From: a virus
Taxonomy: Duplodnaviria; Caudoviricetes
IMG/VR virus record: IMGVR_UViG_3300042140_000289
Location: 1-34,488 of that record
DNA length: 34,488 bases
Direction: 5' to 3' (one strand)
In this document: piece after piece, positions 131 to 33,382 of the stretch
How the letters are laid out: each line of letters begins with the position of its first letter
Position numbering within the stretch: position 1 is the stretch's first letter
Made by a program: the position numbers and the translations under genes
The notes under the pieces: generated by a model
What the model was told of the DNA's origin: nothing
Database searches by the model: none
What the model saw: the letters and a program-made list of their open reading frames with translations, nothing else

Positions 131-159
131 TCTCATTATAAGCCATGTAATTTTTGCGA
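131..159 (-). promoter_or_regulatory. Conserved phage promoter motif upstream of tRNA-Leu
   Basis: Minus strand TCGCA-AAAAT-TACA-TGGCT-TATAATGAGA, with the same spacing as 9 other copies. Confidence 0.8.
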
Positions 160-185
160 AAAAAAAAATAATCTTTGTAGGGAGA

Positions 186-228
186 AACGCAGAAGCCGTG
201 TACAGTTTTTGTACACGACTTCCGCGTT
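186..228 (-). terminator. Long hairpin after cassette gene (terminator or processing site)
   Basis: Minus strand AACGCGGAAGTCGTGTACA-AAAAC-TGTACACGGCTTCTGCGTT. The mismatches become G-U pairs only on the minus strand. Related to the hairpins at 30.9-33.2 kb. Confidence 0.6.
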
Positions 229-238
229 CGTTCCCTCG

Positions 239-544
239 TCAGTTGACGTTGATGTTCTTCGGACGGACGATCGTGTTGAACGCCTTCGAAGACCACACGT
301 GGTGCTGCTCGTAGGCCACGATGAGCAGGATCCCGACGATGTTTCCAGCGACGACGACCAGCGTGTCGCGGCTGATCTGGTTCGTGTTTCGCTTCTGCGA
401 GTCACGAGCTTCGATCAGCCGCTCCAGCTGGTTGACGTAGTTGTTGTACTCGTCGGAACCCGGTTCGGTCATGTCCATGTAGTTCAGCACTCGTTGAATG
501 GCATCCTCGAGCGATGTTGACAATTCGTCCCGCTTTCGGAACAT
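239..544 (-). CDS. Small GC-rich cassette protein with one hydrophobic segment (101 aa)
   Basis: RBS AAGGAGG, GC-rich third positions, hydrophobic stretch LVVVAGNIVGILLIVAY; flanked by the promoter motif and a hairpin. Confidence 0.85.
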   Translation of the reverse strand: MFRKRDELSTSLEDAIQRVLNYMDMTEPGSDEYNNYVNQLERLIEARDSQKRNTNQISRDTLVVVAGNIVGILLIVAYEQHHVWSSKAFNTIVRPKNINVN

Positions 545-562
545 AATTCCTCCTTGTTAGGG

Positions 563-591
563 TCTCATTATAAGCCTTGTATTAACTGCGA
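563..591 (-). promoter_or_regulatory. Conserved phage promoter motif
   Basis: TCGCA-GTTAA-TACA-AGGCT-TATAATGAGA; overlaps the stop codon of the upstream gene. Confidence 0.8.
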
Positions 592-2780: not shown

Positions 2781-3632
2781 TTAGATCCCCCAGTAAGTAT
2801 GTTGGTGCCGAATATAATTCCAGGAAAAATTGTTTGCAGTAATGTAAAACTCGTTTGTGCCTGGAAAAATAATTGGCCAAACTGAATCGGCTTTTAAGCG
2901 GTCTAATAAATGAATAGTTTGTCCTTCTCTCTCCATATATAAATGTCTTTTATTGTTCAAACTTGAGAATTTAAGAACATCTAAATTTTGAAAGCCAATA
3001 ATGCCAAATACATCTCCAGGCATTACTTCAAATTTCCAATCGTAAGCCTCGTCCTGAATCTTAAAAAATGGCGTTGGCCCGCTAAAAACCACCTCAAACT
3101 CAAAGCCGTGTGGAGCTGTTGAAACATCGTCAATAATAACAGGCGTGTTTGGTGAAGCAAAATCTGTTTGCGCATAAGTAAAGTTTGGAGAGGTCAGCAT
3201 TGGGTCAATGCACTCCATTGTAAGTTGAACTTCTGGAGTGTCGGAAAAATGATTTGCTTCTAATTTAGTAACCAAACCCTTAAGCGAGGCAACAACTGAG
3301 TTTCCATCTTTAAACTGAACATCAATTGCTCCAGTTCTAGACGAAGAAATACCACGATACAGCTTATCTCTCAAAGTTGTAATCGTTTCTCCTGCGGAGT
3401 ATTTTGGGTTCAGGGAGATTCTAATAACAAGCTCTCTTTTATCCGCACTCATTGCGTAAAACTTGTTATTAGAAGAGCTCCCCAACCCATAAAATTTTGC
3501 CGTAATATCACCGCTGTCAATGCCTGCCAAAGCTTTTGCTACATAAGAATTAGTTGAGGTTGGATCCCTAAAGCTAAGATTAATTAAATGATTATCACAA
3601 GAACAATACAAGTCAATGTTTGTTACTTTCAT
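2781..3632 (-). CDS. Distal tail protein (Dit)-like
   Basis: Immediately follows the tape measure with an ATGA overlap; 283 aa; CIDP and PGTNEF motifs typical of Dit. Confidence 0.7.
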   Translation of the reverse strand: MKVTNIDLYCSCDNHLINLSFRDPTSTNSYVAKALAGIDSGDITAKFYGLGSSSNNKFYAMSADKRELVIRISLNPKYSAGETITTLRDKLYRGISSSRTGAIDVQFKDGNSVVASLKGLVTKLEANHFSDTPEVQLTMECIDPMLTSPNFTYAQTDFASPNTPVIIDDVSTAPHGFEFEVVFSGPTPFFKIQDEAYDWKFEVMPGDVFGIIGFQNLDVLKFSSLNNKRHLYMEREGQTIHLLDRLKADSVWPIIFPGTNEFYITANNFSWNYIRHQHTYWGI

Positions 3633-11058: not shown

Positions 11059-11928
11059 TCAGGTGAAGTCGTAGAACCAATCGTCATCGACATTAGCCGG
11101 GAAGTAGTATCCGTTGTTGGGACGAGCCGTAACAACAGTATCCTCGGTAATGACGACAGCGCCAGCAGCCTGTGCGACGTTGTTGATGTAGTAAGTAACA
11201 CCGGTAACCGACGGGATCGTAATCGTGTCAGTAGCCGAGTTATACGACGGCTCAGTCGGGGTGACCTGCACCGCGGTTCCGCTGAAGATGGAAATCACCG
11301 CATCAGGAAGGGGCAGAGACGGATCAGTCCCAGCCGTTCCGTAGAGGAAGTTTTCAAGAATCTCTAAATCACCGGAATCAACCATGGTGGAGTCAACCGT
11401 TAAGATAGAAGTAGGCCTAGCGTCAGTAACCGCAACCGGGACCGTCGTTAACTCCCAGCTAAACGTAATAGCCTCGGGCGAATCGTTGATCGTCGTGTAG
11501 GCCTTCTCCGAAGGGCTCGCGCTACAGCCGTAAACCAGGTGAAGTTTGTAGCCATAATCATCGCCATCGATGTCGTTGCCAAGTTTGGTCCTGTAGGAAA
11601 GACCAAACGTACGACGAGCCTGCTGCCCAATGGTTAATCCAGGCGCGGGAACGCCAAGACCATCAAAAGGAGCGAACTCATCCGGGTAAGTAAAGGCCTC
11701 AATAGTCCCACCGAACTCCTCGGCCGAGAAGAGGTTCAGGTACTTAACGTTATCCGCATACTGAGCGTTAGGCTCCGCGCCCGAAGGGGTCTCCGTAACG
11801 GTAACAAGACCGTTCCAAGCAACTCCATCAGTGTAAGCGCCCGAAGAATCGGGGATGTAGAGAACACCCCGGTCCACACCGGTCTCATAGATTCGCTCAC
11901 CGGCACCGTCCCAAGTAAGAACTGCCAT
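11059..11928 (-). CDS. Major tail (tube) protein
   Basis: Position after the tail terminator; GC-rich codons; tube-type sequence plus a C-terminal Ig-like domain. Confidence 0.88.
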   Translation of the reverse strand: MAVLTWDGAGERIYETGVDRGVLYIPDSSGAYTDGVAWNGLVTVTETPSGAEPNAQYADNVKYLNLFSAEEFGGTIEAFTYPDEFAPFDGLGVPAPGLTIGQQARRTFGLSYRTKLGNDIDGDDYGYKLHLVYGCSASPSEKAYTTINDSPEAITFSWELTTVPVAVTDARPTSILTVDSTMVDSGDLEILENFLYGTAGTDPSLPLPDAVISIFSGTAVQVTPTEPSYNSATDTITIPSVTGVTYYINNVAQAAGAVVITEDTVVTARPNNGYYFPANVDDDWFYDFT

Positions 11929-17762: not shown

Positions 17763-18335
17763 TTAAACCAAATTCCTATACTGCTTTTCTAACTTAGCTC
17801 GTTTGACTGATTTCTCAAGCGCTTTGTCGGAGAGAGCCGAAGCCGGAGATCGACCAGTCCTCTTAAATGCAATATCGTCAAGAGCAGCATTGACCTGGTT
17901 TGTCATCTGCTTTTTAAACTGGTCTTTTCCGATTTGAATAGCGACATCGCCAAGAAACTTTGCTGATTCTGTAGCGAATCGCTTACCTCTAGATACGCTC
18001 TCCGTTTGCGACTTTGCGCTAAGCTCTTTGAACTGCTGCTCCAGCCGCATTCTTTCAACAGCATCTTTAAGTTGTTTATCACTAAGGCTTTTAACACTTG
18101 GTTTTGGCGGAGGCTTAGCCCAAGCTGGTTTTCCAGACTTTGCGGATTTCTTTTTTTCTTTTCGAACTCCCCATTTCATGCCTTTGACCCCGGCATGATT
18201 CAGAAAGTTTTTTGTAAAATCGACCGCTTGAGCGAGTTCATCTTCGGTGTCTGGAAGAAGTTCAAAGGAAATAATTTTTCCCATGCTATCGTATCTTGCT
18301 TTTACTTCAATTTCAACGCTTTCGGGATCTAACAT
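17763..18335 (-). CDS. Basic protein with HxGxKGMKWG motif (putative internal virion protein)
   Basis: Acidic N-terminus, then FLNHAGVKGMKWGVRK and a Lys/Arg-rich remainder. Confidence 0.75.
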   Translation of the reverse strand: MLDPESVEIEVKARYDSMGKIISFELLPDTEDELAQAVDFTKNFLNHAGVKGMKWGVRKEKKKSAKSGKPAWAKPPPKPSVKSLSDKQLKDAVERMRLEQQFKELSAKSQTESVSRGKRFATESAKFLGDVAIQIGKDQFKKQMTNQVNAALDDIAFKRTGRSPASALSDKALEKSVKRAKLEKQYRNLV

Positions 18336-19104
18336 TTCCTTCCACCACCTTCCATGTTAACCCAGTATCTGAAACGTCGTATTTAAACTGCAGAGTCTTT
18401 TTGCTTCGGCTACTTCCGACCATTTTCTCTGAGTTTTTATTTAAAACTTGGGTGGCCATTGCTGACATTTCATCGTTATACTTTTTTAAAAGTTTTGGGT
18501 CGCCAGAAATGTTTTTGTTTTTGTATTGCGGCTTCTCATTGATTAATTTAATGTTTGCATTAATTTCTTTGCCGGATTTATTATAGATTTTTCTAATAGT
18601 TTTACTTTTTGTGGCTTTTTTTTCCCATTTTTTGTCAGCTTTTCTTACTTTCCTTCTAGCTGGGTTTGTCTTTTTAATTTGGCGGCGTTCTTTTCTAACG
18701 CCCCATTTCATACCTTTAACACCAGCATGTTCAAGAAAGTTTAAGCCTTTTTCTTTTAAAGATTCCTCAATATTGCTTTGAGCTAACTCTTGATCGGCCA
18801 ACTCTTGCTTCCTTTTTCGCGCTTTAGCGGCAATAGCTCTAGCTTCCGCCTCGTTCTGCGGAACTGGCTCACCCCAAGCTGCAGCAGTAAGAGCAAACCT
18901 AGTAGGGCGACCTTTTTCGTCTTTTAGCGGTGGATAATTATCCTGGCCATAAAACCTCAAGGCCCAGCTAATCCAACGCTTTTTATCAGACGTGCTCGCT
19001 TTCGAGTAATTTTTGACTCCTGGCTTTAAATTACCACCAAAAGCTTTTCTACCAGCAGCTGTTAATCCACCTTTTGGGTTTTTTAAAGGTTTTTTATCAC
19101 TCAT
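18313..19104 (-). CDS. Basic two-domain protein with HxGxKGMKWG motif
   Basis: N-terminal KNPKGGLTAAGRK domain (DUF6321-like, from memory), then FLEHAGVKGMKWGVRK. Confidence 0.75.
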   Translation of the reverse strand: MSDKKPLKNPKGGLTAAGRKAFGGNLKPGVKNYSKASTSDKKRWISWALRFYGQDNYPPLKDEKGRPTRFALTAAAWGEPVPQNEAEARAIAAKARKRKQELADQELAQSNIEESLKEKGLNFLEHAGVKGMKWGVRKERRQIKKTNPARRKVRKADKKWEKKATKSKTIRKIYNKSGKEINANIKLINEKPQYKNKNISGDPKLLKKYNDEMSAMATQVLNKNSEKMVGSSRSKKTLQFKYDVSDTGLTWKVVEGNVRSRKR

Positions 19105-19874: not shown

Positions 19875-21788
19875 TCACAAACTATCTAAAAACAGCTCAA
19901 AGTGCCTTTGCGGCATCTGAGTGTATGGAGTGTCGTGAGCTTTATTTGAAATGAAAGCCGAAGCAACAATGTTTTTACTAGCTAAAGCAGTTTGATACAT
20001 AAACATGTGTTTAGCTGGTACAACCCCATCAAATTCACCATGAACCAAGCCAATTTTTGGAATCTTAGACGACGCCTGAGCGGAAACCATACTGGAAAGT
20101 GAAGACCCTTCAGTTTCTACCTGGGTAAGCGGGTAATCGTAATCGTTTCCGTAAAACAAGTTAGCGGTAATCTTTAATTTACCATAAGGAGCCACTAAAG
20201 TTTCTCCTCCACTAGCAAGTGGGCCGTAATCCGGATCGCTAGCGTCATTGTTGTAGGCCCACCACATATCGGATGGAGTTGCCCAAGTATATGCGCCTTT
20301 AAAAATTGGATCCGGTGTATTTGATCTACCGCCCCATTCACTGTTAACCGTTAAATCAAATCCGTTTAGATTAGATAAATCTCTACTGATTGCTGCAGCC
20401 TGAGCTAAATACGCCCCAGCTGAATGCCCAGTTACAATTACACGGTTGTGATCCAAAGCATAATCTTCTTGCTCTTTAATCCATAAAGCCGCCAACTTGA
20501 CGTCCGAAATAAAACTAGGGAACTTTCCAGACCCCTGATTTGGCCAAGCGGGTTTGGCAATGTCAAACAAGCTTAACTGCCACGCAAAGATGTAGTCAAT
20601 GCTAACAACAGCATAACCTTTTCGAAGAAGCCAATAAACCCAACCGTCATGAACGTCACCTCTTACTCCAGCGGAGAAGAATCCTCCATGAACATACATA
20701 ACTACTGGCCAACCATTAGCCGGCGCGGTTCTTGTTGGGATCCAAAGAGTAAGAGCCCTGACTGATTTGCCTGGATCGTAGTTTAAATCATGAACTGTGT
20801 AGTTTGATGTTGAATATACAAACTCTCTTGACCTGTCATGCCAATTGTTTTTGTCTGATGTGTTCACAACTCCAGACTCGACAACGCCTTCTTCAAGTAC
20901 TGGAACTTCTTGACCATCGACCATTTCGTACCAGGTGTTTACTGGAGTTTGATAATGTTGATCTGCTGTTCCATCCAGGTTATACGTATCAAAAACTTCA
21001 AGATCCCCAAACCACCACTCTTGAATATAGCCACCAGCACCACATTTAGACGGATGCCGTCCAAGCATAATACAATTTGCGTCGATGCTTGCGGGGTTAC
21101 ATGTAACAGTGTACCAAGGAGTTCCAGTGTCTGCCCACTTCCAAATCTTTAGTGTTACTTTTGGAGCAACGTTCTGAACTTGAATTTGAATTCGCCAAGT
21201 AAACCCCGTAGTGATCTGATTGTTAGTTGGCGGAGTTGTTAGATTAATCGCATTTGTTTCGCCTTTAAAAAATGGTTGATTTACTCGAGTAAACCCTCCG
21301 GTAGTAGTATACCTATTTAACATTAAACTAAATCTATCAGTTTGAGAATAATCAGTTCCAGACACATTCATGAACGTAATCATGTGTGGATAAGTGTCAC
21401 TATAAAAAAGAGATAATGGATTTGAGTTTGTTGTCACATAAAATCTACACGAGTATTCGGTTAACGGAGAAATAAAACCATCTTCATTAACGCGAGAATC
21501 TCCAAAACGCCAGTAATTTCTAGCAGGAATGTTTCGCTCTGCATAATCAGTAAAGATAATTCCTCTAGAAAATGGTGTCCGTCTATTTGCCGATACATGC
21601 GAATTACCATAATAAACTTTTGAAGGTCTATAATCAGGAAAGAATGGAGGAGTTAGATCATTGATTGAAGGATTTGTCTGAAAACCTTCAGAAGGTTCTG
21701 GGCACTTTGGCGCTCCTTGCGTAGGGTGGCACCAAGTTGGGGGAGCAAGAGGCACGTCTTCTGGGTGGAGTCCTAAAATTTTTGTCAC
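19875..21788 (-). CDS. Alpha/beta-hydrolase (esterase/lipase) with N-terminal beta-sandwich domain
   Basis: HGGFF oxyanion motif, GHSAG nucleophile, candidate Asp in HGEFDGVVP and His in AHD. Confidence 0.8.
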   Translation of the reverse strand: MTKILGLHPEDVPLAPPTWCHPTQGAPKCPEPSEGFQTNPSINDLTPPFFPDYRPSKVYYGNSHVSANRRTPFSRGIIFTDYAERNIPARNYWRFGDSRVNEDGFISPLTEYSCRFYVTTNSNPLSLFYSDTYPHMITFMNVSGTDYSQTDRFSLMLNRYTTTGGFTRVNQPFFKGETNAINLTTPPTNNQITTGFTWRIQIQVQNVAPKVTLKIWKWADTGTPWYTVTCNPASIDANCIMLGRHPSKCGAGGYIQEWWFGDLEVFDTYNLDGTADQHYQTPVNTWYEMVDGQEVPVLEEGVVESGVVNTSDKNNWHDRSREFVYSTSNYTVHDLNYDPGKSVRALTLWIPTRTAPANGWPVVMYVHGGFFSAGVRGDVHDGWVYWLLRKGYAVVSIDYIFAWQLSLFDIAKPAWPNQGSGKFPSFISDVKLAALWIKEQEDYALDHNRVIVTGHSAGAYLAQAAAISRDLSNLNGFDLTVNSEWGGRSNTPDPIFKGAYTWATPSDMWWAYNNDASDPDYGPLASGGETLVAPYGKLKITANLFYGNDYDYPLTQVETEGSSLSSMVSAQASSKIPKIGLVHGEFDGVVPAKHMFMYQTALASKNIVASAFISNKAHDTPYTQMPQRHFELFLDSL

Positions 21789-22024
21789 GCATACCTCCGA
21801 CAGATTTTAGTTCCATCGGGAAGTCCTGCCGCAGACTCACCTGCATCTAAGAATACAACTGACTCTCCAGATGGCCCAGGTAACCCTCGAACATTACCGG
21901 CGTTAATAGTATTGTTATCTTTTGTAACTAAAATTAAATCATCCGCCTCAATATAGGCATTAATTAAAATGCCGTTTTCAATTTCCTTCATTCTTTCTGC
22001 AGTTAAACCAGTTACCGTGGCCAT
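21785..22024 (-). CDS. Small structural protein, paralogue of the N-terminus of 8847..9503
   Basis: MATVTGLTAERMKEIE...DLIL....N.TINAGNVRG is shared with 8847..9503. Confidence 0.75.
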   Translation of the reverse strand: MATVTGLTAERMKEIENGILINAYIEADDLILVTKDNNTINAGNVRGLPGPSGESVVFLDAGESAAGLPDGTKICRRYA

Positions 22025-22040
22025 ACCAACCTCCTTTGGC

Positions 22041-22247
22041 CTATCCGATACTCCAAGCTAAAGCTTCGTGCTCTAAATGCGCGGAGTTTGTGTGCACAGC
22101 GTTGGCCGCATCAGAAATATCAATTAAGTTCAAAACAACCATTAACGTTGCCAAAGCTCCAGCGCTATCTAAAGATTGATACCTAGGGTTTCCTGTGTTT
22201 TCAATGGACAAAATATTACCCTGCCCATCACTCGTTACTACTTTCAT
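22041..22247 (-). CDS. Hypothetical protein (possible fibre chaperone)
   Basis: 68 aa; overlaps the stop of the collagen-like gene. Confidence 0.6.
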
Positions 22248-23503
22248 AAGGAACTCCTAACAAAAACGCAAGGCGGTTGAGTGCCGTTGCCTGGACCGGC
22301 TGAGCAAAACTGTGGTAATGCTCCGGTTACATTGTCTTGAAACTTTGTTCCGTTTAACGTAGCCATAGCGTCTGGAACTTGGTATCCTAAAATATGAGTA
22401 GTTTGAAAGTCTGCGTGCCCATTAGTTTGTTGAGCAACGCACGCTAACCAGTAAAGACCCGGTTCTAAAAGTAAATTGATTGTAATTACTTTAAAGTCCG
22501 GATCACTAGTCAGATCAATAGTTCCAGCATCTAAAATAAGTTGATAAGGCGAATCGTCTGTTGATGAACTAGAATATACACCAAGACGAGCAACAGACCC
22601 TGCGCCGATAGACGTTGAGTGTGTGTGGTTCATGCCGATTCGATCAATAATCATTGACCTAGTCACGTACATAGGCGTGTACCAAAGCCTATTGTTATTC
22701 GTTTGACCATTTCCAGAAGTAGTAGCAGAAGGAGAAGTGTACTGGCCATCAATAAACATTGCCGGAGGTTTAGGAGGATCCGTAGAATTAATTACAATTC
22801 CTGGGTCTCCTTCTGTATAATTTGGATTTAAGTCAATAGTGATGTTGTCGCCGGCTTCAATATCTAAGATACTTAAAGATCCCCCGACACCAGCAATTGG
22901 GCCTCTACTAATAACCGCGTACATCTCACCAAAAACTGGAATATTGTTAGGCGTTAATACGACCTGCCTGTACTGATGGACGATTAGCTGCTGATCATCA
23001 CCATTGAAAAGAATGCCGCTAGTTCCAGCGTCTAGAGTAACATCTCCGTCTTCTGCAACGTTAATAACCCACCACTCTTGGCCGTAGTGTGTTAACGATA
23101 CAGTATCAGGAAATGTAATTACACAAGATGCCGCAACAATGAGAACCCTTGGAATGCCAGTAATAGTAGTGTCTTCAAAAATAAATTCAACGTTTCTAGA
23201 CTGTAAATACTGCGTATGAGGATGACCAACAGTTAAGTTTAAAAGCTCGGCATGATCGTCAGTTCCTGCAGATTCTCCAGGAGGACCTTCTGGACCCTGC
23301 GGACCTTCTGGCCCTTGGGCTCCTGTAGGACCGGCTGCTCCAGCAGGACCAGCAGGACCAGCGGGTCCAGTAGCTCCAGCCGGTCCAGTAGCTCCAGCCG
23401 GACCGCTTGGGCCAACTGGGCCAGACCGAATGATAGTAATTGCGCCAGTCGCAGGATTCTGAAGAATCCTTTGCGTTCCGGCCTCTGAAAATGGATCGCT
23501 CAT
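22244..23503 (-). CDS. Collagen-like fibre/minor structural protein
   Basis: About 17 consecutive G-X-Y triplets near the N-terminus (~23272-23422), then beta-rich domains. Confidence 0.8.
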
Positions 23504-25040: not shown

Positions 25041-25115
25041 TCTCCCCCGGGGCCAAAAAATGTGGTCCGGCGATGAAGGGAGGGGGGTAATTTTAAAGAC
25101 CCCTCCCCCCCTTCA
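25041..25115. other. Candidate cos/packaging site
   Basis: G-run/C-run inverted repeat at 25074-25115, GC-rich 9-mer CGCCGGACC (minus strand, 25064-25072) and a CCCCGGGG palindrome, located in the intergenic region just ahead of the lysin/terS genes. Confidence 0.45.
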
Positions 25116-25128: not shown

Positions 25129-25374
25129 TTAATAATCAACTTCTTTTGAAACTTTTCTATAAAGTCCAGAAATATTTTCTTCAACAATCTCATCAATTGC
25201 TAATTCATTAGCGATATTCTGATCAACTTCTGATAACTCATTAGACGTGAAGGTGAGCCTGGCCAGGAGGGAAGAGGTGTTGTACCCTGCCGCCACATCA
25301 TAAGCAAACCATTCTTTAAAGTTTTCAAAAGGATCGAACGGATTGTCGACAGTTGTTAACATGGAACGTTTCAT
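25129..25374 (-). CDS. Conserved-looking acidic hypothetical protein downstream of the polymerase
   Basis: MLTTVDNPFDPF..F.EW..YD...GYNT motif. ATG 25374 has better RBS spacing than GTG 25380. Confidence 0.75.
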   Translation of the reverse strand: MKRSMLTTVDNPFDPFENFKEWFAYDVAAGYNTSSLLARLTFTSNELSEVDQNIANELAIDEIVEENISGLYRKVSKEVDY

Positions 25375-25386
25375 CTTCACTCCTTT

Positions 25387-28065
25387 CTACTCTCCACCTT
25401 CAACAGCCAAGTCTAATGTTGACAGTGAGACGCCAAGCTGTTGAGCTACCTCAGCTCTTGTGTAGCCTAGAGCTAACATAGACTCAGCTCGCTTAGTCTT
25501 TGCTGATGTCATCTTAACTTGAGTTCTTGGTGTTGCAAGTTCTCTAACAACATCCATGTCTGCATGTCTAAGTATCTCAGTAAGTTTGTGATTGCTGATA
25601 GCACCAGCTTGAATAGCTTCCCATTCTTTTGGTGTTAACTTAATGTCTTGCTTCTTAGCGCCTGTTCTATTCCTAGCTTCGTTTAAGGCCTGGGCCTTAA
25701 GTCTTTTCTCATGCGCTTTATCTAAATTAGGATTAGCATCTTTCTTAGTCTGAAGAACAGAGTTAGCTAGTAGCTGTGCCTGCCGTTCCCTAGGTGCGTT
25801 TAACTGGGCGAGGGTTAGCTTATTATTTAAACTATCAACTTCATTCTTATAAACCTTGTTAGCTGAAGGTGAGTACTTAACGGAGGGGGTCTTAACTGAC
25901 TCTCTCCTGGCTTCGTTAGCAAGGGCCTTTAGTTTATTAGAATGATCGGCGTAAAGGTTTTCAATCCTTGTGCCGGACGAAAGAGTACGGGCGTCTTTAG
26001 TAATACTAAGCCTCTCTACTTTAGTAGTTAAAGGTTGCCCTGTTCTCCAACTAACTTCACCCGTTGGTTCGAATACCCGTTCACCAGTATCTTTATCAAT
26101 GGGGCCACCTTTAGCCATCGACCTAGCTTTAAACTTAGGGACGCGTTCTTGTCCCTTTGCCCTAGAGATTAAGGTCGAAGCTCCACCAGGAGGACCACCA
26201 TCCGGTTTGGCCTGGTACTTAGCTCTTAGATTCTTAATACCATTATCAATCTCAGATTGTTTATAGTTTAGCCTGTGCTTTTCTGCATCAATAACAACCA
26301 TTGAATGTCTAACGGCGGCGGCAAGCTCTGTGGTTGGGGCGCCTTTAATAGTCATGTCTGTAATTAAATTAGATATTTCGCCCATTTGCCGTTGAGTGTT
26401 ACTCATCACCTTCATTCCAGGGTATTCTTTATATGTAACCCTTGGGTTGAAGTTTTTTAAACCTTCAAGAGCAGCGGTAGACGTTATCTTTCCGTTGTTA
26501 TTAGGAATGACTAATACCGTGTCCCCGTCAAAGTCAGCGCCTGATAATCTTTCTGCAACTTTTGCGTTGATACCCACCGCATCTAAAGCATCACCCAAAA
26601 TGTTTTTTGATTCTTTGTGTTTGTTATTAACTTTTAACTTTGGAATCTCAAAAGTACCGCCATGTGGGAATCTAATCAAAACTACTTCTTCACCGTTTTT
26701 ATAGTTAGGCGCATAGATTTCATTAGGTTTTAAAGACTTAATTGGCATAATCACATGATAAGCCTGTCTTGGTAAGCTAGCGGCAGATAAATGTACGGAT
26801 GCGGCGTCAGTTCCATCAGCAAATTCGTCTAAAAGTTTTTTCCTGACGGCTGGATTTGTCAACTGTTTAATTGTGTTTAAATCATTGACGCGTCTTTCAT
26901 AAGTCATGTCCAGCTGTTCTTTAGCTAACTGTGGAGTTTGTTTTGACAACACCTGAGTCGAGATGGATTTAGACCATTTCCCCCATTGACCCTCTTCTGT
27001 TAGAATGTTCATAACAGAAGTTACTTTTTGTTTGCCATCCTTGGTGGGCTTAGTTATTTGTCTACTAACTGTAGCGCCAAAAGGATTGTCCGGGTCATCT
27101 GAGAGTGGTTTTAAAACGTCTAACTTATTTGTGACTTCTGATTTAGATTTGTTTGTATTAAACACAACGTCAACGCCATCAGGTAAATCATTTTTATAGA
27201 TTGCCATGCCCTTCATATAATGTGAATTACCAACCTGAATTCTTACCTGTGCGTACCTAGAGCCTCCTATAGAAAGATCTTCTACACCAGGTCGCATATA
27301 AATAACTCCGTCAGCTTCTTCTCCGCCGTCTTCTTTATAATTGATAGCAATTCTTTTTGGATTTAAAGGTAGAGGTGGCAGCATACCCAAAATAGTTTTA
27401 CCAGTATCGTCTAAATGAATGTTTGGCGCTTTGATGTTGTAGCGATTTTTACTTACATCGCCAAAGGTTGTTCCCGGAGGAGCCAAGACTTTGAAGTTTG
27501 TTTCAAAATCAGTTCCTAACTGTTGAACTTTAATGTTAGTGTAAACATTATACCCTTCGCTTTTCAGAATTTGAAGGGCAGTATTAAGGCGCTCTTTACT
27601 AACATTCAAATAGTTCTCAACGCCATTACCAACATCAGTCAAACCATTTTTATCAACAAACTCTCTTAAGATTGATGCGGTTTTTAAGGTTAAATCTTCT
27701 TTGTCTTTTAATCCTGGTGCTAAAAGGGTTCTAACTGTAGACTCTGGGATCCCCATTTGTTTCCCAATAGCCACATTACTCATACCTTTGTCTTTAAGTC
27801 TTTGCGCGGTTGCTTGATCGGCTGCTTTTTTTTCAGATTTTGCTAACGACTTTGCCGCCCTTAATTCTGCGGTTGTCATGCCAAAGCCCTGCGCGATTTC
27901 GGTTTCTTTTAATCCATCTTTTTTTAACTTTGCGACGGTATCTAAAAAATCCCTGTTGTTTGACGTGACAAAGGAGTCGCCTCCACTACCCCAAGGGTAC
28001 CTACCTGATTTTCTAATAATACCATAATGAGCAAGATATTCTTCTTCTTCAATTAACACAATCAC
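25387..28065 (-). CDS. Putative single-chain two-barrel RNA polymerase (YonO/cellular RdRP-like) with three HTH motifs
   Basis: Motifs in the expected order: ADGVI, QVR...MKG, LIRFP, LSGADFDGD (26521-26535), MGEISN, HSMVVIDAEK. Two N-terminal HTHs and one C-terminal HTH. Confidence 0.78.
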   Translation of the reverse strand: MIVLIEEEEYLAHYGIIRKSGRYPWGSGGDSFVTSNNRDFLDTVAKLKKDGLKETEIAQGFGMTTAELRAAKSLAKSEKKAADQATAQRLKDKGMSNVAIGKQMGIPESTVRTLLAPGLKDKEDLTLKTASILREFVDKNGLTDVGNGVENYLNVSKERLNTALQILKSEGYNVYTNIKVQQLGTDFETNFKVLAPPGTTFGDVSKNRYNIKAPNIHLDDTGKTILGMLPPLPLNPKRIAINYKEDGGEEADGVIYMRPGVEDLSIGGSRYAQVRIQVGNSHYMKGMAIYKNDLPDGVDVVFNTNKSKSEVTNKLDVLKPLSDDPDNPFGATVSRQITKPTKDGKQKVTSVMNILTEEGQWGKWSKSISTQVLSKQTPQLAKEQLDMTYERRVNDLNTIKQLTNPAVRKKLLDEFADGTDAASVHLSAASLPRQAYHVIMPIKSLKPNEIYAPNYKNGEEVVLIRFPHGGTFEIPKLKVNNKHKESKNILGDALDAVGINAKVAERLSGADFDGDTVLVIPNNNGKITSTAALEGLKNFNPRVTYKEYPGMKVMSNTQRQMGEISNLITDMTIKGAPTTELAAAVRHSMVVIDAEKHRLNYKQSEIDNGIKNLRAKYQAKPDGGPPGGASTLISRAKGQERVPKFKARSMAKGGPIDKDTGERVFEPTGEVSWRTGQPLTTKVERLSITKDARTLSSGTRIENLYADHSNKLKALANEARRESVKTPSVKYSPSANKVYKNEVDSLNNKLTLAQLNAPRERQAQLLANSVLQTKKDANPNLDKAHEKRLKAQALNEARNRTGAKKQDIKLTPKEWEAIQAGAISNHKLTEILRHADMDVVRELATPRTQVKMTSAKTKRAESMLALGYTRAEVAQQLGVSLSTLDLAVEGGE

Positions 28066-28070: not shown

Positions 28071-28631
28071 TCAGAATCTGTCAGAGTTTCTCATTTCTTC
28101 GATTTGTTGGTCAAAGTCAACAATGATATCCATGATGTCAACAATTGTCTCAGCATATGGCTCAAAAGTTCTAACGTCTTCGCCTTGATAGATTCTCAAC
28201 TCAATCTCAATATCAAACGGAGAAATAGAGTACTCTAAACAAAACAAAGCCGCATAAACTTCAAGTTGTTTTTCTTTTGTCGGAGTAATCCCAGTTTTCA
28301 AATCATGAATTCGTAATTTGTTTCGTCTAAAAGAAATTGTATCTGCTGTACCAAAACAGTTATCGGAATAATATAACGCTTGTTCGCAATTCATCTTATA
28401 GTGTATAGCATCATTAACATATGTGGATAAAGATTTGTTTGACCTAGATAACTTTACCCCTAACCTAATTGCCTCATGGGCAAGATCGTGTAAATCAGAC
28501 CCTCTTCTTGCGGCTTGGGCAGCGACAAATCTAGACTCTAATTTTTCATAATTGTAGTTAACCCAACTATAGTTACTCGGGCTCAAAAAGGCGTGCTTGC
28601 CTTGTAATTCCGAATGCCGATTGAAGAGCAT
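28071..28631 (-). CDS. PD-(D/E)XK (Cas4/RecB-like) exonuclease
   Basis: LSPS, RGSDLH, GTAD, DLKTG and QL..YA motifs. Confidence 0.8.
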   Translation of the reverse strand: MLFNRHSELQGKHAFLSPSNYSWVNYNYEKLESRFVAAQAARRGSDLHDLAHEAIRLGVKLSRSNKSLSTYVNDAIHYKMNCEQALYYSDNCFGTADTISFRRNKLRIHDLKTGITPTKEKQLEVYAALFCLEYSISPFDIEIELRIYQGEDVRTFEPYAETIVDIMDIIVDFDQQIEEMRNSDRF

Positions 28632-28893
28632 CTAAAACTTCCTCCTCGTTTTCCGGAAAAATAAATGCTGAAAACGACATTCCGTTTAACATGTCAACAT
28701 AATAGTTTTGGTTTGGCCGAATTGGAGCATCAGCATGTGCTTTAACTTCTAACATCGCCCAACTATCTTTATAGAGAATAATTAAATCTGGAATCCCTTG
28801 CACGTAAGTTGGGTCGTTTTTAATGACCAAACAGCCCGGTAAAATTGATTCCAGTTTTTTGATGAGATAGTGTTGATAGTCTTTTTCCAGCAT
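28573..28893 (-). CDS. VRR-NUC / Holliday-junction-resolvase-like nuclease
   Basis: EKDYQ, GIPDL, LEVK and RPNQ motifs. Confidence 0.85.
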   Translation of the reverse strand: MLEKDYQHYLIKKLESILPGCLVIKNDPTYVQGIPDLIILYKDSWAMLEVKAHADAPIRPNQNYYVDMLNGMSFSAFIFPENEEEVLDALQSAFGITRQARLFEPE

Positions 28894-28934: not shown

Positions 28935-28963
28935 TCCTATTATATACGATGTATTTTATAAGA
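28935..28963 (-). promoter_or_regulatory. Variant copy of the phage promoter motif upstream of the nuclease-polymerase operon
   Basis: TCTTA-TAAAA-TACA-TCGTA-TATAATAGGA with exact spacing; followed by hairpin AATGTGA/TCACATT (28914-28932). Confidence 0.6.
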
Positions 28964-30903: not shown

Positions 30904-30924
30904 TTAATCCTCCTTTATAAAAGA

Positions 30925-30966
30925 AAAATGAAATGCCCTGTAAGTCAATACAAGGCATCTCATTTT
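30925..30966 (-). terminator. Cassette hairpin
   Basis: Plus strand AAAATGAAATGCCCTGTA..TACAAGGCATCTCATTTT; starts 3 nt after the TGA. Confidence 0.65.
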
Positions 30967-30968
30967 GA

Positions 30969-31262
30969 TCAGATCTTGACAAGGTAGTCAGAAGTGATCT
31001 GCTCTTCGCTGATGTCAAGTCCACCATTGATCTCACACAAGAGGTCGATGATCCGTCCGACATTGTTCCAAGCTTCCATGTCTTTGTCGGTCACGTTAGC
31101 GATACGCAATGGTGTTGACGGGTCCCAAAAGGTTCCGGTCTCTTCCATGTGACGCTTTTGCGCGGCAAAGAACTCAAAAGCCACAAGATTATATCTTAGG
31201 GCAACATCATCCTCAAGGATGAGATGTAGGGGACTTCCCAAAAACGAGTATACAGATTGCAT
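30969..31262 (-). CDS. Cassette protein (97 aa), unknown function
   Basis: RBS AAGGAG; promoter motif upstream, hairpin downstream. Confidence 0.8.
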   Translation of the reverse strand: MQSVYSFLGSPLHLILEDDVALRYNLVAFEFFAAQKRHMEETGTFWDPSTPLRIANVTDKDMEAWNNVGRIIDLLCEINGGLDISEEQITSDYLVKI

Positions 31263-31285
31263 CTATCTCTCCTTATTAGTAGGTC

Positions 31286-31314
31286 TCTCATTATACGCGT
31301 TGTAATTATTGCGA
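31286..31314 (-). promoter_or_regulatory. Conserved phage promoter motif
   Basis: TCGCA-ATAAT-TACA-ACGCG-TATAATGAGA. Confidence 0.8.
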
Positions 31315-31318
31315 GAGA

Positions 31319-31364
31319 AAAAGTGTGATGCCTTGTATTGGGTAATACAAGACACCGCACTTTT
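31319..31364 (-). terminator. Cassette hairpin
   Basis: Minus strand AAAAGTGCGGTGTCTTGTATT-ACCC-AATACAAGGCATCACACTTTT. Confidence 0.65.
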
Positions 31365-31369
31365 GAGTG

Positions 31370-31609
31370 TCACAGTCGATACCCGAGGGGGTGGTTCCTG
31401 ATCGCCTCCACGCGCCGCTCCGACTCCTTCCGGCGGCGGGCGAGCTGGACGCGGTGGGGGATCGACAGCATGTACCGACCCGCTCGGTAGGTACCGTAGC
31501 CGATGATGGCTCCGATAGCTGCGCGAGCGAGCAGGCTCATGCCGTCGTCCGAACCGCTTCCGGACTCGCCGTTGCCGGTCGTGTCGTTGTTGGTCGTGTC
31601 GTTGTTCAT
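31370..31609 (-). CDS. Cassette membrane protein (79 aa)
   Basis: Start re-called at MNNDTT after AAGGAG; hydrophobic core and Arg-rich tail; very GC-rich. Confidence 0.8.
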   Translation of the reverse strand: MNNDTTNNDTTGNGESGSGSDDGMSLLARAAIGAIIGYGTYRAGRYMLSIPHRVQLARRRKESERRVEAIRNHPLGYRL

Positions 31610-31642
31610 GGTCTCTCTCTCCTTTGGTAGGGGTTGTTTAAC

Positions 31643-31671
31643 TCTCATTATACGCTTTGTAATTCTTGCGA
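31643..31671 (-). promoter_or_regulatory. Conserved phage promoter motif
   Basis: TCGCA-AGAAT-TACA-AAGCG-TATAATGAGA. Confidence 0.8.
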
Positions 31672-31676
31672 GGCAA

Positions 31677-31720
31677 AAAGTGAGATGCCTTGTATTGGGT
31701 AATACAAGACACCGCACTTT
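31677..31720 (-). terminator. Cassette hairpin
   Basis: Near-identical to 31319..31364. Confidence 0.65.
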
Positions 31721-31724
31721 GAGA

Positions 31725-31970
31725 TCACTTCAGATTGATCATCATGATTGCGATATCGAAGTCAGCGAATCGCACCGCCTCTTTGATCGTGACCTCTTTC
31801 CTCATAGCAAGAACTCCGTACTCGATCAGGATGGCCATGGTTTCTGGATCGTTGGTGATCTCATCAAACCTGGACTCTCCGTGATAGAACAGGGTTTCTT
31901 TCCAGTATTGAAAGCCTCGATTGTTTTTGCAGGGATTCTTCAGAAGTCGAATGTAACGCATGTAACGCAT
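31725..31970 (-). CDS. Cassette protein (81 aa), unknown function
   Basis: RBS AAGGAG; flanked by the promoter motif and a hairpin. Confidence 0.8.
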   Translation of the reverse strand: MRYMRYIRLLKNPCKNNRGFQYWKETLFYHGESRFDEITNDPETMAILIEYGVLAMRKEVTIKEAVRFADFDIAIMMINLK

Positions 31971-31989
31971 GTTTCTCTCCTTTGGTTGG

Positions 31990-32018
31990 TCTCATTATAC
32001 GCCTTGTAATTGATGCGA
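31990..32018 (-). promoter_or_regulatory. Conserved phage promoter motif
   Basis: TCGCA-TCAAT-TACA-AGGCG-TATAATGAGA. Confidence 0.8.
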
Positions 32019-32022
32019 GAGA

Positions 32023-32068
32023 AAAAACGAAATGCTTTGTACCTCCTAATACATAGCATCTCGCTTTT
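32023..32068 (-). terminator. Cassette hairpin
   Basis: Plus strand CGAAATGCTTTGTA..TACATAGCATCTCG flanked by A/T runs. Confidence 0.6.
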
Positions 32069-32080
32069 GAGGGTAGTACC

Positions 32081-32269
32081 TCAGGTCGGGTTGTTGGTGG
32101 ACGACTCGTCGTCGACGATCATCTCGATCGTCTTCCGCTGCATCCGCTGCACCATCCAGTTCGCGGTGGTCACCGAAGCCACGTAGGCTCCAGCGATCAC
32201 GCCGATCCGGATGGCGAACTGAGCGAACGGCAAGACGCCGGGGATGGTGTCGTTGGTGTCGTTGTCCAT
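32081..32269 (-). CDS. Cassette membrane protein (62 aa)
   Basis: Start re-called at MDNDTNDT after AAGGAGG; one TM-like segment. Confidence 0.8.
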   Translation of the reverse strand: MDNDTNDTIPGVLPFAQFAIRIGVIAGAYVASVTTANWMVQRMQRKTIEMIVDDESSTNNPT

Positions 32270-32296
32270 TTCAGTCCTCCTTGATAGGTTGATAAC

Positions 32297-32325
32297 TCTC
32301 ATTATACGCCCTGTAATTCTTGCGA
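32297..32325 (-). promoter_or_regulatory. Conserved phage promoter motif
   Basis: TCGCA-AGAAT-TACA-GGGCG-TATAATGAGA. Confidence 0.8.
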
Positions 32326-32328
32326 GGC

Positions 32329-32374
32329 AAAAAGTAAGATGCCTTGTAATTAGCTACAAGACACCCTACTTTTT
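32329..32374 (-). terminator. Cassette hairpin
   Basis: Plus strand AAAAAGTAAGATGCCTTGTA..TACAAGACACCCTACTTTTT. Confidence 0.65.
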
Positions 32375-32377
32375 AGA

Positions 32378-32602
32378 TCAGTCCTTCTTCTTGGCCTTCT
32401 TCTTGACCTTCGATTCGACTTCGAGCTTCGTCTTGTCGTTTCGGCGGATCAGTTCTCCGATCTTACGCATGTGCCACCGGACAATCGTGACTCCACCGAT
32501 GCTGCAAAGAGCACCGATAATCACGATTCCAGCGACAGTCACAAGATCTTCTGAAGTGAACGCTTCCTCTTCGTTGACGCTCTGATCGGTTTCGTTGGTC
32601 AT
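32378..32602 (-). CDS. Cassette membrane protein (74 aa)
   Basis: RBS AAGGAGG; acidic N-terminus, TM helix, Lys-rich tail. Confidence 0.8.
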   Translation of the reverse strand: MTNETDQSVNEEEAFTSEDLVTVAGIVIIGALCSIGGVTIVRWHMRKIGELIRRNDKTKLEVESKVKKKAKKKD

Positions 32603-32628
32603 TTATTCCTCCTTGAATTAGGGATTGG

Positions 32629-32657
32629 TCTCATTATAAGCCTTGTAATTTATACGA
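32629..32657 (-). promoter_or_regulatory. Conserved phage promoter motif
   Basis: TCGTA-TAAAT-TACA-AGGCT-TATAATGAGA. Confidence 0.8.
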
Positions 32658-32662
32658 CGAAA

Positions 32663-32703
32663 AGATGAAATGCCTTGTAGGGGGTCTACAAGACATCTCA
32701 TCT
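32663..32703 (-). terminator. Cassette hairpin
   Basis: Plus strand AGATGAAATGCCTTGTAG..CTACAAGACATCTCATCT. Confidence 0.65.
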
Positions 32704-32726
32704 GAGCTTCCCTGAGTCTGGGTGAC

Positions 32727-32873
32727 TCAGCCGAACTTCCTGGCGTAGGCAGCACGGGACTGGCTCGAGCTCAGCGCATCGAGGAGCTTCGCGGCCGCCA
32801 TAACGGCGAACGAGCTCACGATGATGATCTTGACCGGGTCCTTGTCGTACTCTTCCTTCAGTCGGTCCAACAT
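32727..32873 (-). CDS. Cassette protein (48 aa), not in ORF track
   Basis: MLDRLKEEYDKDPVKIIIVSSFAVMAAAKLLDALSSSQSRAAYARKFG; RBS AAGGAGG; GC-rich third positions. Confidence 0.8.
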   Translation of the reverse strand: MLDRLKEEYDKDPVKIIIVSSFAVMAAAKLLDALSSSQSRAAYARKFG

Positions 32874-32898
32874 GTTTCCTCCTTGATTATAGGGTTGG

Positions 32899-32927
32899 TC
32901 TCATTATACGCTTTGTAATTCCTGCGA
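32899..32927 (-). promoter_or_regulatory. Conserved phage promoter motif
   Basis: TCGCA-GGAAT-TACA-AAGCG-TATAATGAGA. Confidence 0.8.
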
Positions 32928-33095
32928 CTACTCGTCCCCCTGAGCCTCAAGATACGCGTAAAAGATCCACTGCTCAAAGTCAGTCAACTTTTCAGCAGGC
33001 TTTACCGACATTTTGAATGCCGTGTTAAGTCCCCACGCCGCTCCAAGAAACGTGCAAAAGAGAAACGTTACCAAATAACCGATGAACTTGAACAT
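32928..33095 (-). CDS. Small membrane protein (55 aa), not in ORF track
   Basis: MFKFIGYLVTFLFCTFLGAAWGLNTAFK...; RBS AGGAGG; lacks its own promoter motif and hairpin. Confidence 0.75.
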   Translation of the reverse strand: MFKFIGYLVTFLFCTFLGAAWGLNTAFKMSVKPAEKLTDFEQWIFYAYLEAQGDE

Positions 33096-33112
33096 TTTAA
33101 TCCTCCTAATTG

Positions 33113-33156
33113 AAAAGTGAAATGCCTTGTATATTCATACAAGACACCTCACTTTT
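33113..33156 (-). terminator. Cassette hairpin
   Basis: Plus strand AAAAGTGAAATGCCTTGTAT..ATACAAGACACCTCACTTTT. Confidence 0.65.
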
Positions 33157-33158
33157 GG

Positions 33159-33335
33159 TCACTCTCCGTTGTGGATGTGCACTTCGACCCAGGGGCCAGA
33201 GCGCGAGATGAAGTAGACGGCCGTGAGCCCCACGAGGCTGACGAACATCACTGCCTTGCGGCGGTTTGCTCGTGCTTCGCGGATCTCTGCGGCGGTCCGC
33301 TTCGACTCCATCTGGTCGATCAGTCGGTTGTACAT
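33159..33335 (-). CDS. Cassette membrane protein (58 aa)
   Basis: Start re-called at MYNRL after AAGGAGG; TM-like AVMFVSLVGLTAVYFI. Confidence 0.8.
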   Translation of the reverse strand: MYNRLIDQMESKRTAAEIREARANRRKAVMFVSLVGLTAVYFISRSGPWVEVHIHNGE

Positions 33336-33353
33336 AATTCCTCCTTGGTTAGG

Positions 33354-33382
33354 TTCCATTATATACCTTGTAATTTCTACGA
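33354..33382 (-). promoter_or_regulatory. Conserved phage promoter motif
   Basis: TCGTA-GAAAT-TACA-AGGTA-TATAATGGAA. Confidence 0.75.

What the first reader, a model, noticed from the sequence alone, without database searches (positions are those of the whole stretch)
25387..28065. Cryptic single-chain two-barrel RNA polymerase with built-in HTH domains
Seen, in order: EADGVIYM (~27310), AQVRIQ....YMKGMA (~27205-27250), LIRFPH (26665-26673), LSGADFDGD (26521-26535), MGEISNL and HSMVVIDAEK. Known: these parallel the DG, QxR..KG, RxP, DxDGD, LGxIxN and S.AVD..K motifs of cellular RdRPs (QDE-1 family) and SPbeta YonO, and DFDGD is the Mg-binding loop of multisubunit RNAP beta'. Also seen: HTHs GLKETEIAQGFGMT, GMSNVAIGKQMGIPESTV and a C-terminal GYTRAEVAQQLGVSLSTL, which would lead automated pipelines to label it just an HTH protein. 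Inference: a compact, sigma-independent DNA-dependent RNAP. It either reads the tripartite promoter (three boxes, three HTHs) or, like YonO, transcribes the late genes.
Basis: partly seen in the sequence, partly recalled or inferred. Interest (0 to 1): 0.92.

Follow-up and report, generated by a model that had tools for sequence, protein, structure and literature searches.

The report
Self-contained, probably packaged phage RNA polymerase
This phage gene encodes a single protein predicted to fold like the catalytic core of cellular RNA polymerases, with four predicted DNA-binding modules attached; the family is already predicted in print but I found no bench test of it, and it likely reads a repeated phage-specific promoter and is likely carried inside the virus particle.

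Summary
ORF 25387-28065 (-) carries all quoted motifs; the catalytic residues are invariant or nearly so in 146 aligned sequences, and a confident AlphaFold model matches QDE-1, RDR2 and Thermus phage P23-45 gp64 (Z 13-16). It is not cryptic: it is PHROG 4291, the Lactococcus 1706 ORF75 family, called YonO-like in 2010 and described with its HTHs in a 2021 preprint. This scan has also found it repeatedly on other genomes. I found no bench test.

The three-box motif lies only before early genes and the polymerase's own operon, travels with the gene (22 of 22 near-complete genomes), has no -35 element, and lacks the -10 consensus in all 14 FP_oengus copies. Packaging is likely: 1706 ORF75 is annotated 'structural protein', the N-terminal peptide also heads head-module proteins, and one relative is fused to a portal. 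Additions here: a fourth, winged-helix domain, so the 'three boxes, three HTHs' match fails, and box 1 recurring beside cos in relatives. Verdict: new member of a known, untested family; easily testable.

The parts
25387..28065 (-). Single-chain two-barrel RNA polymerase gene (PHROG 4291; 1706 ORF75 family), 892 aa
27982..28035 (-). N-terminal peptide aa11-28 (L-x-H-x-G...S-G-R-Y-x-W-G): conserved but predicted disordered; related to DUF7211; candidate capsid-loading tag
   Evidence: S20, G21, R22 in 146 of 146; pLDDT under 50; DUF7211 E 0.14; same peptide on head-module proteins of G002 and G016
27856..27957 (-). HTH 1 (about aa37-70)
   Evidence: three-helix arrangement in both models; VIA rows over this part Z about 6
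27721..27828 (-). HTH 2 (about aa80-115)
   Evidence: Pfam HTH_23 and Sigma70_r4_2
27436..27714 (-).
   Evidence: best VIA match TFIIIC eWH 5aim_B Z 8.2, rmsd 3.8, 86 aligned; most of the top 50 rows are winged helices at Z 6-8; no Foldseek match at E<=0.001
25876..27387 (-). Predicted polymerase core (about aa227-730) with both barrels
   Evidence: VIA Z 16.1 RDR2, 15.8 QDE-1, 13.7 P23-45 gp64 over about 350-370 residues, rmsd 4.2-4.9
26521..26535 (-). Catalytic loop DFDGD (D511, D513, D515)
   Evidence: 146 of 146 and 120 of 120 sequences
25399..25506 (-). C-terminal HTH (about aa854-889)
   Evidence: Pfam HTH_7 E 3e-4; model
28935..28963 (-). Divergent copy of the three-box motif upstream of the nuclease-exonuclease-polymerase operon
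   Evidence: 18.5 bits; equivalent copy in 22 of 40 relatives at 12 bits or more against 0 of 40 inside the gene
28573..28893 (-). VRR-Nuc-type endonuclease gene, first gene of the polymerase operon
   Evidence: PHROG 93; same order in GenBank relatives
28071..28631 (-). Cas4/RecB-like exonuclease gene directly upstream
   Evidence: PHROG 3953
25129..25380 (-). Conserved 83-aa gene directly downstream, last gene before the predicted genome end
   Evidence: PHROG 4303; same position in relatives
25073..25114 (-). G-tract / loop / C-tract element next to cos; in relatives the loop carries promoter box 1 (CGCR), here a degenerate TCTTT
25064..25072 (-). Predicted 9-base cos site (3' overhang), by position and likeness to the ends of isolated relatives
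31286..33382 (-). Seven copies of the three-box motif (31286, 31643, 31990, 32297, 32629, 32899, 33354; 29 bases each) before small non-structural genes, several right after terminator-like hairpins
131..591 (-). Two more copies (131-159, 563-591) just after the lysis genes, at the start of the small-gene region
17763..19104 (-). Two basic head-module genes (18313-19104, 17763-18335) bearing DUF7211, the relative of the polymerase's N-terminal peptide
   Evidence: Pfam E about 1e-10; pI 10.4 and 9.8

Best explanation
The gene encodes a one-chain protein predicted to be a two-barrel, DNA-dependent RNA polymerase that is likely loaded into the phage head through its N-terminal peptide, would enter the cell with the DNA, and likely uses its predicted HTH and winged-helix modules instead of a sigma factor to start transcription at the three-box motif found before the early genes and before its own operon. 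Steps: (1) catalytic motifs and their conservation: shown. (2) Two-barrel fold: predicted with high confidence. (3) DNA rather than RNA template: inferred from the dsDNA phage context, the DNA-binding modules, and YonO and P23-45 gp64. (4) The motif CGCR-N5-TACA-N5-TATAAT-GA as its promoter: inferred from position, strand, co-occurrence and loss of sigma-A features. (5) Packaging: inferred from annotation, tag sharing and fusions. (6) Late genes: all phage genes here run the same way and the polymerase operon ends just before cos, so late transcription would come after circularisation, by read-through or from the box-1 element next to cos; this is the weakest step.
For: Fold: AlphaFold2 mean pLDDT 87.5, pTM 0.78; Foldseek top rows are QDE-1 (E 5.5e-8), P74-26 gp62 and P23-45 gp64 (E 8e-7, 2e-6) and RDR2; VIA Z 12-16 for these, then about 10.5 for Rpb1-type chains. 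All eight residues listed as invariant in two-barrel polymerases have counterparts by motif order (D252, R275, K285, R465, P467, D511, D513, D515). Promoter: de novo search recovered the same spaced motif in the window and in Mudcat, Gravy, ReqiPoco6, 1706, P118 and FP_oengus; in Scap1 it came only from a profile scan. All 83 curated copies are on the sense strand, none before the late operon (one antisense 14.5-bit hit in the window was left out). Of 56 viral contigs of 35 kb or more picked by the exact motif and searchable, 51 carry the polymerase, 22 of 22 among those at least 90% complete. In 185,579 prokaryotic species genomes a 19-base version occurs in only 14 stretches of 12 genomes, 6 of which hold the polymerase. 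The best -35 match is near background (4 of 6 in 15 of 83 sites, none 5 or 6; random positions 13% at 4 or more), an extended TG occurs in 1 of 83, and TAnnnT is missing in 14 of 14 FP_oengus and 2 of 6 Scap1 copies. Packaging: GenBank labels 1706 orf75 (39% identical over the full length) 'structural protein', as it does orf7, which carries two DUF7211 copies. The polymerase-type peptide heads three head-module proteins beside the terminase in G002 and G016 (E 8e-16 to 2e-10). Three distinct long proteins carry the polymerase core, without the tag, at the end of a low-complexity polyprotein, one beginning with a portal domain (P0170, P0184, P0270).
Against: No activity, binding or transcription-start data. 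67 of 83 copies keep a TAnnnT hexamer, most as perfect TATAAT, and 2 of the window's 10 have a passable -35 (TTGCCT, 18-base spacer); two genome announcements read the motif as a sigma-70 promoter. Co-occurrence within one lineage does not show a functional pair. The contigs were selected on the TATAAT form. The 'structural' label in 1706 also falls on orf62 and orf71, small mid-genome genes without the tag, so it may include co-purifying proteins; I could not read the source paper. The DUF7211 match of the polymerase peptide is weak by itself (E 0.14; profile of the peptide against DUF7211 proteins E 0.2-5), and DUF7211 has no tested function. The fusion proteins are single-contig sequences, and two other long hits (P0271, P0272) look like chimeras. 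A folded 100-kDa enzyme would have to unfold to pass a siphovirus tail (general knowledge). In this window the cos-side element lacks CGCR.
Confidence: 0.48

Rival explanations
1. Same enzyme and promoter, but not packaged: host sigma-A polymerase first reads the TATAAT hexamer of the motif, including the copy before the polymerase operon, and the new phage enzyme then takes over the same promoters.
For: 67 of 83 copies keep TAnnnT; a copy sits before the polymerase operon in 22 of 40 relatives, usually with TATAAT; temperate members such as FP_oengus (integrase) must restart transcription without a virion.
Against: Needs a separate reason for the invariant N-terminal peptide shared with head-module proteins and for the 'structural' label of 1706 orf75; FP_oengus copies, including the one before its polymerase operon, lack TAnnnT.
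Confidence: 0.22
2. A YonO-like late polymerase: the three-box motif is read by host sigma-A polymerase, perhaps with a phage activator as with T4 MotA (recalled), and this enzyme transcribes only the structural operon, from the element beside cos.
For: YonO transcribes late genes. The gene is second to last before cos in the isolated relatives examined, the place of a late regulator. A conserved element flanks cos in 41 of 48 sequences. Consensus TATAAT is common.
Against: The cos-side element shares box 1 with the early motif (CGCR at 21-24 bases from the final AT in 26 of 40, against 2.8 +/- 1.6 in shuffles), which suggests one reader for both. The motif loses sigma-A features in FP_oengus and Scap1 yet keeps its spacing across two phyla. 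A late-only enzyme has no need of a head tag.
Confidence: 0.22
3. Not a transcribing enzyme: an RNA-dependent polymerase, as its PHROG and RefSeq name says, a primer maker, or a DNA-end or core protein with a retained fold.
For: Closest solved folds are QDE-1 and RDR2; PHROG name; neighbours are nucleases and a helicase.
Against: Four predicted DNA-binding modules; a complete invariant active site; the related phage enzymes YonO and P23-45 gp64 are DNA-dependent; these phages encode their own primase-polymerase.
Confidence: 0.06

Closest known systems
Lactococcus phage 1706 ORF75 / FP_oengus AUV56548 / 'HTH DNA-binding domain protein' of actinophage clusters AM, AU, AW, BI, CC, DJ, EL (PHROG 4291; PMC2919709; bioRxiv 10.1101/842583)
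   Same: Same family: PHROG E=0 over aa4-889, 250 GenBank phage records at 38-57% identity, same gene order, same motifs and terminal HTHs as described by Koert et al..
   Different: Nothing essential. The texts I read do not link it to the repeated motif, to packaging, to a winged-helix domain or to the cos-side element.
YonO of Bacillus prophage SPbeta (PMC5467207)
   Same: About 100 kDa, one chain, Asp triad; the 2010 survey lists the 1706 family among five YonO-like families.
   Different: A separate family; YonO transcribes late genes, and its promoter and cofactor needs were left open. I made no direct sequence or structure comparison with YonO.
Thermus phage P23-45 gp64 (non-virion) and gp96 (virion) polymerases (PMC10770324)
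   Same: Single-chain two-barrel phage polymerases with their own promoter motifs before early genes; fold match to gp64 Z 13.7, rmsd 4.9, 358 aligned.
   Different: P23-45 uses two enzymes and packages one by fusion to the tape measure protein; here one enzyme has fused HTH modules and a short tag. About 14% identity in the structural alignment.
QDE-1 and RDR2 (eukaryotic RNA-silencing polymerases)
   Same: Best structural matches (Z 14-16) and the same motif order.
   Different: No terminal HTHs in the matched region; 10-17% identity; eukaryotic RNA-silencing role.
50-bp / 43-bp intergenic motif of Gordonia cluster DJ phages Vardy and Conley (PMC9671010, PMC10868162)
   Same: Mid-genome repeated motif with TATAAT in the same phage group; Gravy, a DJ phage, has 11 copies of the motif described here.
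   Different: Read there as a sigma-70 promoter, with no link to the polymerase gene.

Membership tests
Two-barrel RNA polymerase superfamily | DxDGD metal-binding loop | tested here: met
   D511, D513, D515 in 146 of 146 and 120 of 120
Two-barrel RNA polymerase superfamily | The eight invariant residues (four Asp, two Arg, Lys, Pro; QDE-1 D709, R738, K743, R962, P964, D1007, D1009, D1011) | tested here: met
   Counterparts by motif order: D252 (144 of 146), R275, K285, R465, P467 and the triad (146 of 146); matched by motif, not by residue-level superposition
Two-barrel RNA polymerase superfamily | Two double-psi beta-barrels in one active site | tested here: met
   Predicted model aligns to QDE-1, RDR2 and gp64 over aa227-730, spanning both motif groups; a prediction, not a solved structure
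Two-barrel RNA polymerase superfamily | Template-directed NTP polymerisation | not testable with these tools
   needs purified protein
PHROG 4291 / 1706 ORF75 family | Full-length homology | tested here: met
PHROG 4291 / 1706 ORF75 family | HTH domains at both ends | tested here: met
PHROG 4291 / 1706 ORF75 family | Position: after nuclease and exonuclease, before a conserved small gene and the genome end | tested here: met
YonO (SPbeta family proper) | Sequence membership of the SPbeta YonO family | not tested
   No YonO sequence was fetched; the 2010 survey treats 1706 as a separate family
YonO (SPbeta family proper) | Transcribes late genes only | tested here: inconclusive
   The repeated motif is before early genes; a box-1 element flanks cos in relatives; no transcript data
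Cellular RdRP (Pfam PF05183) | Pfam RdRP above the gathering cut-off | tested here: not met
   13 bits against 23.8, E 0.042
Cellular RdRP (Pfam PF05183) | RNA template use | not testable with these tools
   needs enzyme assay
Virion-packaged RNA polymerases (P23-45 gp96, phi14:2 gp66) | Present in purified virions | tested here: inconclusive
   Only the 'structural protein' label of 1706 orf75; source paper not held
Virion-packaged RNA polymerases (P23-45 gp96, phi14:2 gp66) | Own promoter motif before the earliest genes | tested here: inconclusive
   A motif with the expected place and spread exists; its reader is not shown
Sigma-70/sigma-A promoter (for the motif) | -35 hexamer or extended TG | tested here: not met
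   Near background in 83 sites; TG in 1 of 83; 2 of the window's 10 copies pass a 4-of-6 scan
Sigma-70/sigma-A promoter (for the motif) | TAnnnT -10 hexamer | tested here: inconclusive
   10 of 10 in the window, 67 of 83 overall, 0 of 14 in FP_oengus
DUF7211 (PF23847), for the N-terminal peptide | Pfam match above cut-off | tested here: not met
   12 bits against 27, E 0.14, first half only; the peptide nonetheless occupies DUF7211 gene slots in G002 and G016

The most novel reading that the evidence does not exclude
One tagged 100-kDa protein runs the whole transcription programme of a large phage lineage spanning two bacterial phyla: it is loaded into the head by a short interchangeable peptide, is injected through a siphovirus tail, reads a rigid three-box promoter with its own four DNA-binding modules and no sigma factor, and starts the late operon from a variant of that promoter placed beside cos, so that late genes come under its control only once the genome has circularised.
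Probability: 0.25. Interest if true: 0.82.

Novelty: new member of a known kind. Interest (0 to 1): 0.48.

Why it matters
How a two-barrel polymerase finds and opens a promoter without sigma or basal factors was left open for YonO. This family offers a compact enzyme with fused DNA-reading modules, a candidate promoter, natural promoter variants (FP_oengus, Scap1, 1706) and 250 sequenced phage records, many on laboratory hosts, so the question becomes directly testable. If it works alone it would be an orthogonal transcription system for Actinobacteria and Firmicutes and would help explain how one phage lineage moves between phyla. The polymerase identity itself is not news.

Tried and rejected
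Sequence search of solved structures found nothing with the single protein and only HTH-level or designed-repeat matches with profiles. No match in plasmids. NCBIfam gave only sub-threshold HTH hits. A test for 5' hairpins as a guide to the start site gave a signal only in FP_oengus (4-bp stems starting at the last hexamer base in 5 of 14 sites, 0.3 expected) and none in 198 pattern-picked sites; this was post hoc and is not used as evidence. A degenerate tRNA-like element starts 2 bases after a hexamer in FP_oengus: too weak to use. One RNA run held 5% of the words; laid as contigs, its deepest piece covered 31346-31636, between a motif copy and a terminator, but contigs cannot show starts and it is one study. 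The de novo search in Scap1 returned terminator-like sequence rather than the motif. Long hits P0271 (DNA polymerase joined to the second half of the enzyme) and P0272 (first half joined to tape measure protein) break inside domains and were rejected as probable chimeras. Foldseek on the N-terminal model gave no match at E<=0.001. 'Three boxes, three HTHs' was dropped because a fourth module is predicted and no box was assigned to any module. The host of this phage was not determined. No complex prediction was run. Paper searches for a bench test or virion proteomics found none; the library lacks most subscription journals.
Full report
Context. The window is a 34.5-kb virus record, about 58% complete, of a siphovirus whose genes nearly all lie on the minus strand: small genes, helicase, HNH, two nucleases, the 892-aa gene, a small gene, endolysin, then terminase, portal, protease-capsid fusion and tail genes. 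This is the layout of the lineage that joins Lactococcus phage 1706, Faecalibacterium phage FP_oengus and several actinophage clusters.

Observation. I aligned the protein with 145 of the 150 best 50%-identity representatives, leaving out five of odd length. The Asp triad, R465, P467, Q273, R275, K285, D593 and K596 are invariant in 146 of 146, and D252 is kept in 144. The family is large: 2164 representatives at E<=0.001 and 903 at 1e-30, and all 8000 candidates scored.

Fold. AlphaFold2 on an 81-sequence alignment gave pLDDT 87.5 and pTM 0.78, with residues 1-36 mostly disordered. The Foldseek rows shown at E<=0.001 are QDE-1, P74-26 gp62, P23-45 gp64 and RDR2, followed at weaker E-values by gp96, Rpb1 and beta-prime chains. 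VIA gives Z 16.1 (RDR2, rmsd 4.2, 354 aligned), 15.8 (QDE-1) and 13.7 (gp64) over aa227-730. A separate model of aa35-216 shows two HTHs and then a helix-helix-helix-hairpin domain whose matches are mostly winged helices (best Z 8.2, a middling score). With the C-terminal HTH this makes four predicted DNA-binding modules, not three.

Already in print. PHROG 4291 and several RefSeq records call it 'RNA-dependent RNA polymerase'; FP_oengus calls it 'putative RNA polymerase'; most SEA-PHAGES records say HTH protein. Ruprich-Robert and Thuriaux 2010 (PMC2919709; passages and section 8 read, supplement not read) list the 1706 protein as one of five YonO-like families. Koert et al. (bioRxiv 10.1101/842583; parts 1-3 of 4 read, supplements closed) report an HHpred RdRP match at 95.68%, HTHs at both ends and DxDGD. 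Ten paper searches showed no bench test; unseen supplements and subscription papers could hold more. Earlier notes of this scan reach the same family on at least 16 other genomes; they are leads, not support.

The three-box motif. Nine copies lie on the minus strand, none expected by chance, and a tenth, weaker one precedes the polymerase operon. A de novo search found the same spaced motif in six of seven named relatives, and a profile found it in the seventh, Scap1. The 83 curated copies are all sense-strand and sit before non-structural genes. In 40 of the polymerase-bearing contigs, the best site within about 2.5 kb upstream of the gene scored 12 bits or more in 22, against 0 inside the gene and 1 antisense. 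An exact-pattern scan of viral contigs returned 161 loci from 15 of 64 parts of the collection. I took one locus for each of the 58 contigs of 35 kb or more; 56 could be searched and 52 matched, one of them (G020) only over 89 residues and not counted, giving 51 of 56 and 22 of 22 among records at least 90% complete; the five without are 60-69% complete. In prokaryotic genomes the pattern is nearly absent (14 stretches in 12 genomes; 6 of the 12 hold the gene). The -35 position is near background and TAnnnT is lost in all 14 FP_oengus copies. Against this: 67 of 83 copies keep TAnnnT, two window copies have a passable -35, two genome announcements read the motif as a sigma-70 promoter (PMC9671010 whole text, PMC10868162 one passage), and kinship alone can explain co-occurrence. 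I put about 70% on the phage enzyme reading this motif.

Packaging. The first 30 residues are predicted disordered yet contain invariant positions and resemble the first half of DUF7211, which marks two basic head-module proteins in this window. In G002 and G016 the proteins in those gene slots carry the polymerase's own version of the peptide (E 8e-16 to 2e-10 among 3084 frames), so the two forms appear interchangeable. GenBank labels 1706 orf75 and the DUF7211-bearing orf7 'structural protein'; I recall that these labels came from virion mass spectrometry, but the paper was not held, and two untagged mid-genome genes carry the same label. Of five longer relatives found, three are polyproteins that end in the polymerase core, lack the tag and share a short motif near their start; one begins with a portal domain. 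The other two look chimeric. I put about 55% on packaging.

Late genes. No motif copy precedes the late operon. The polymerase gene is second to last before the genome end in the isolated relatives examined, and the window has a cos-like 9-mer at 25064-25072. Directly before cos, 41 of 48 sequences have a G-tract, loop and C-tract; among 40 distinct ones, 26 carry CGCR 21-24 bases before the final AT, against 2.8 +/- 1.6 in 2000 shuffles, and the early motif has it at 22. This window has TCTTT there, and TCTTA in its operon copy. The element may be a late promoter, a docking site at the DNA end, or a terminase site; I cannot tell which.

Mechanism and rivals. Most likely (0.48): a packaged, sigma-independent polymerase that starts at the motif, amplifies itself through the copy before its operon, and reaches the late genes after circularisation. 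Rivals: the same enzyme unpackaged and started by host sigma-A (0.22); a late-only enzyme like YonO, with the host reading the motif (0.22; YonO from PMC5467207, parts 1-2 of 5 read); a non-transcribing role (0.06). The closest worked-out precedent for a single-chain two-barrel enzyme with its own early promoters is P23-45 (PMC10770324; abstract, passages, sections 11-12). Other papers were seen as passages only and added nothing on the enzyme.

Verdict. The feature is real and correctly identified in kind. It is a new member of a family already predicted in print and, as far as I could search, untested. Interest 0.48, for testability and for the packaging and cos leads rather than for the identification.

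Noticed in passing
window 25073-25114 (-) and loci L268-L307: Conserved G-tract / CGCR loop / C-tract element directly before cos, sharing box 1 and nearly the spacing of the early promoter motif (26 of 40 against 2.8 expected).
   Followed up: partly
proteins P0170, P0184, P0270: Polymerase core without tag and without most HTHs at the end of 1.8-kaa low-complexity polyproteins that share a short N-P-x-Q-A-R-V motif; P0170 starts with a portal domain. Possibly a second phage lineage that captured the enzyme as head cargo.
   Followed up: partly
proteins P0125, P0138: Full-length polymerase with an extra N-terminal 2H phosphoesterase-like domain (2'-5' RNA ligase superfamily; E 3e-6 in P0138, 0.006 in P0125).
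   Followed up: no
window 12573-14528 (-): The protease-capsid precursor has repeated hydrophobic-x-His words in its N-terminal and linker regions (10 in all), like the first residues of the tag; possible cleavage sites, not tested against chance.
   Followed up: partly
L267:1895-2482, 4227-4796; L266:354-791: Head-module proteins flanking the terminase carry the polymerase-type peptide in place of DUF7211.
   Followed up: yes
window 30918-33155 (-): Repeated terminator-like hairpins directly upstream of motif copies, forming promoter-gene-terminator cassettes of about 330 bases.
   Followed up: partly
L085 (FP_oengus) 2283-8243: Several motif copies are followed at once by short hairpins, and one by a degenerate tRNA-like element, hinting at a start site right after the hexamer; not seen in other lineages.
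   Followed up: partly
window 16-99 (-): tRNA-Leu(TAA) gene 36 bases after the hexamer of the motif copy at 131-159.
   Followed up: no
window 9512-10480 and 11059-11928 (-): Two major tail protein paralogues of the same PHROG 2645, as in relatives.
   Followed up: no
window 19875-23503 (-): An esterase-domain gene and a collagen-repeat fibre-like gene lie between endolysin and terminase, outside the tail module.
   Followed up: no
G067 (L264), G062: Single bacterial assemblies hold two and three copies of the polymerase gene on separate contigs, probably several phages of this lineage binned together.
   Followed up: no
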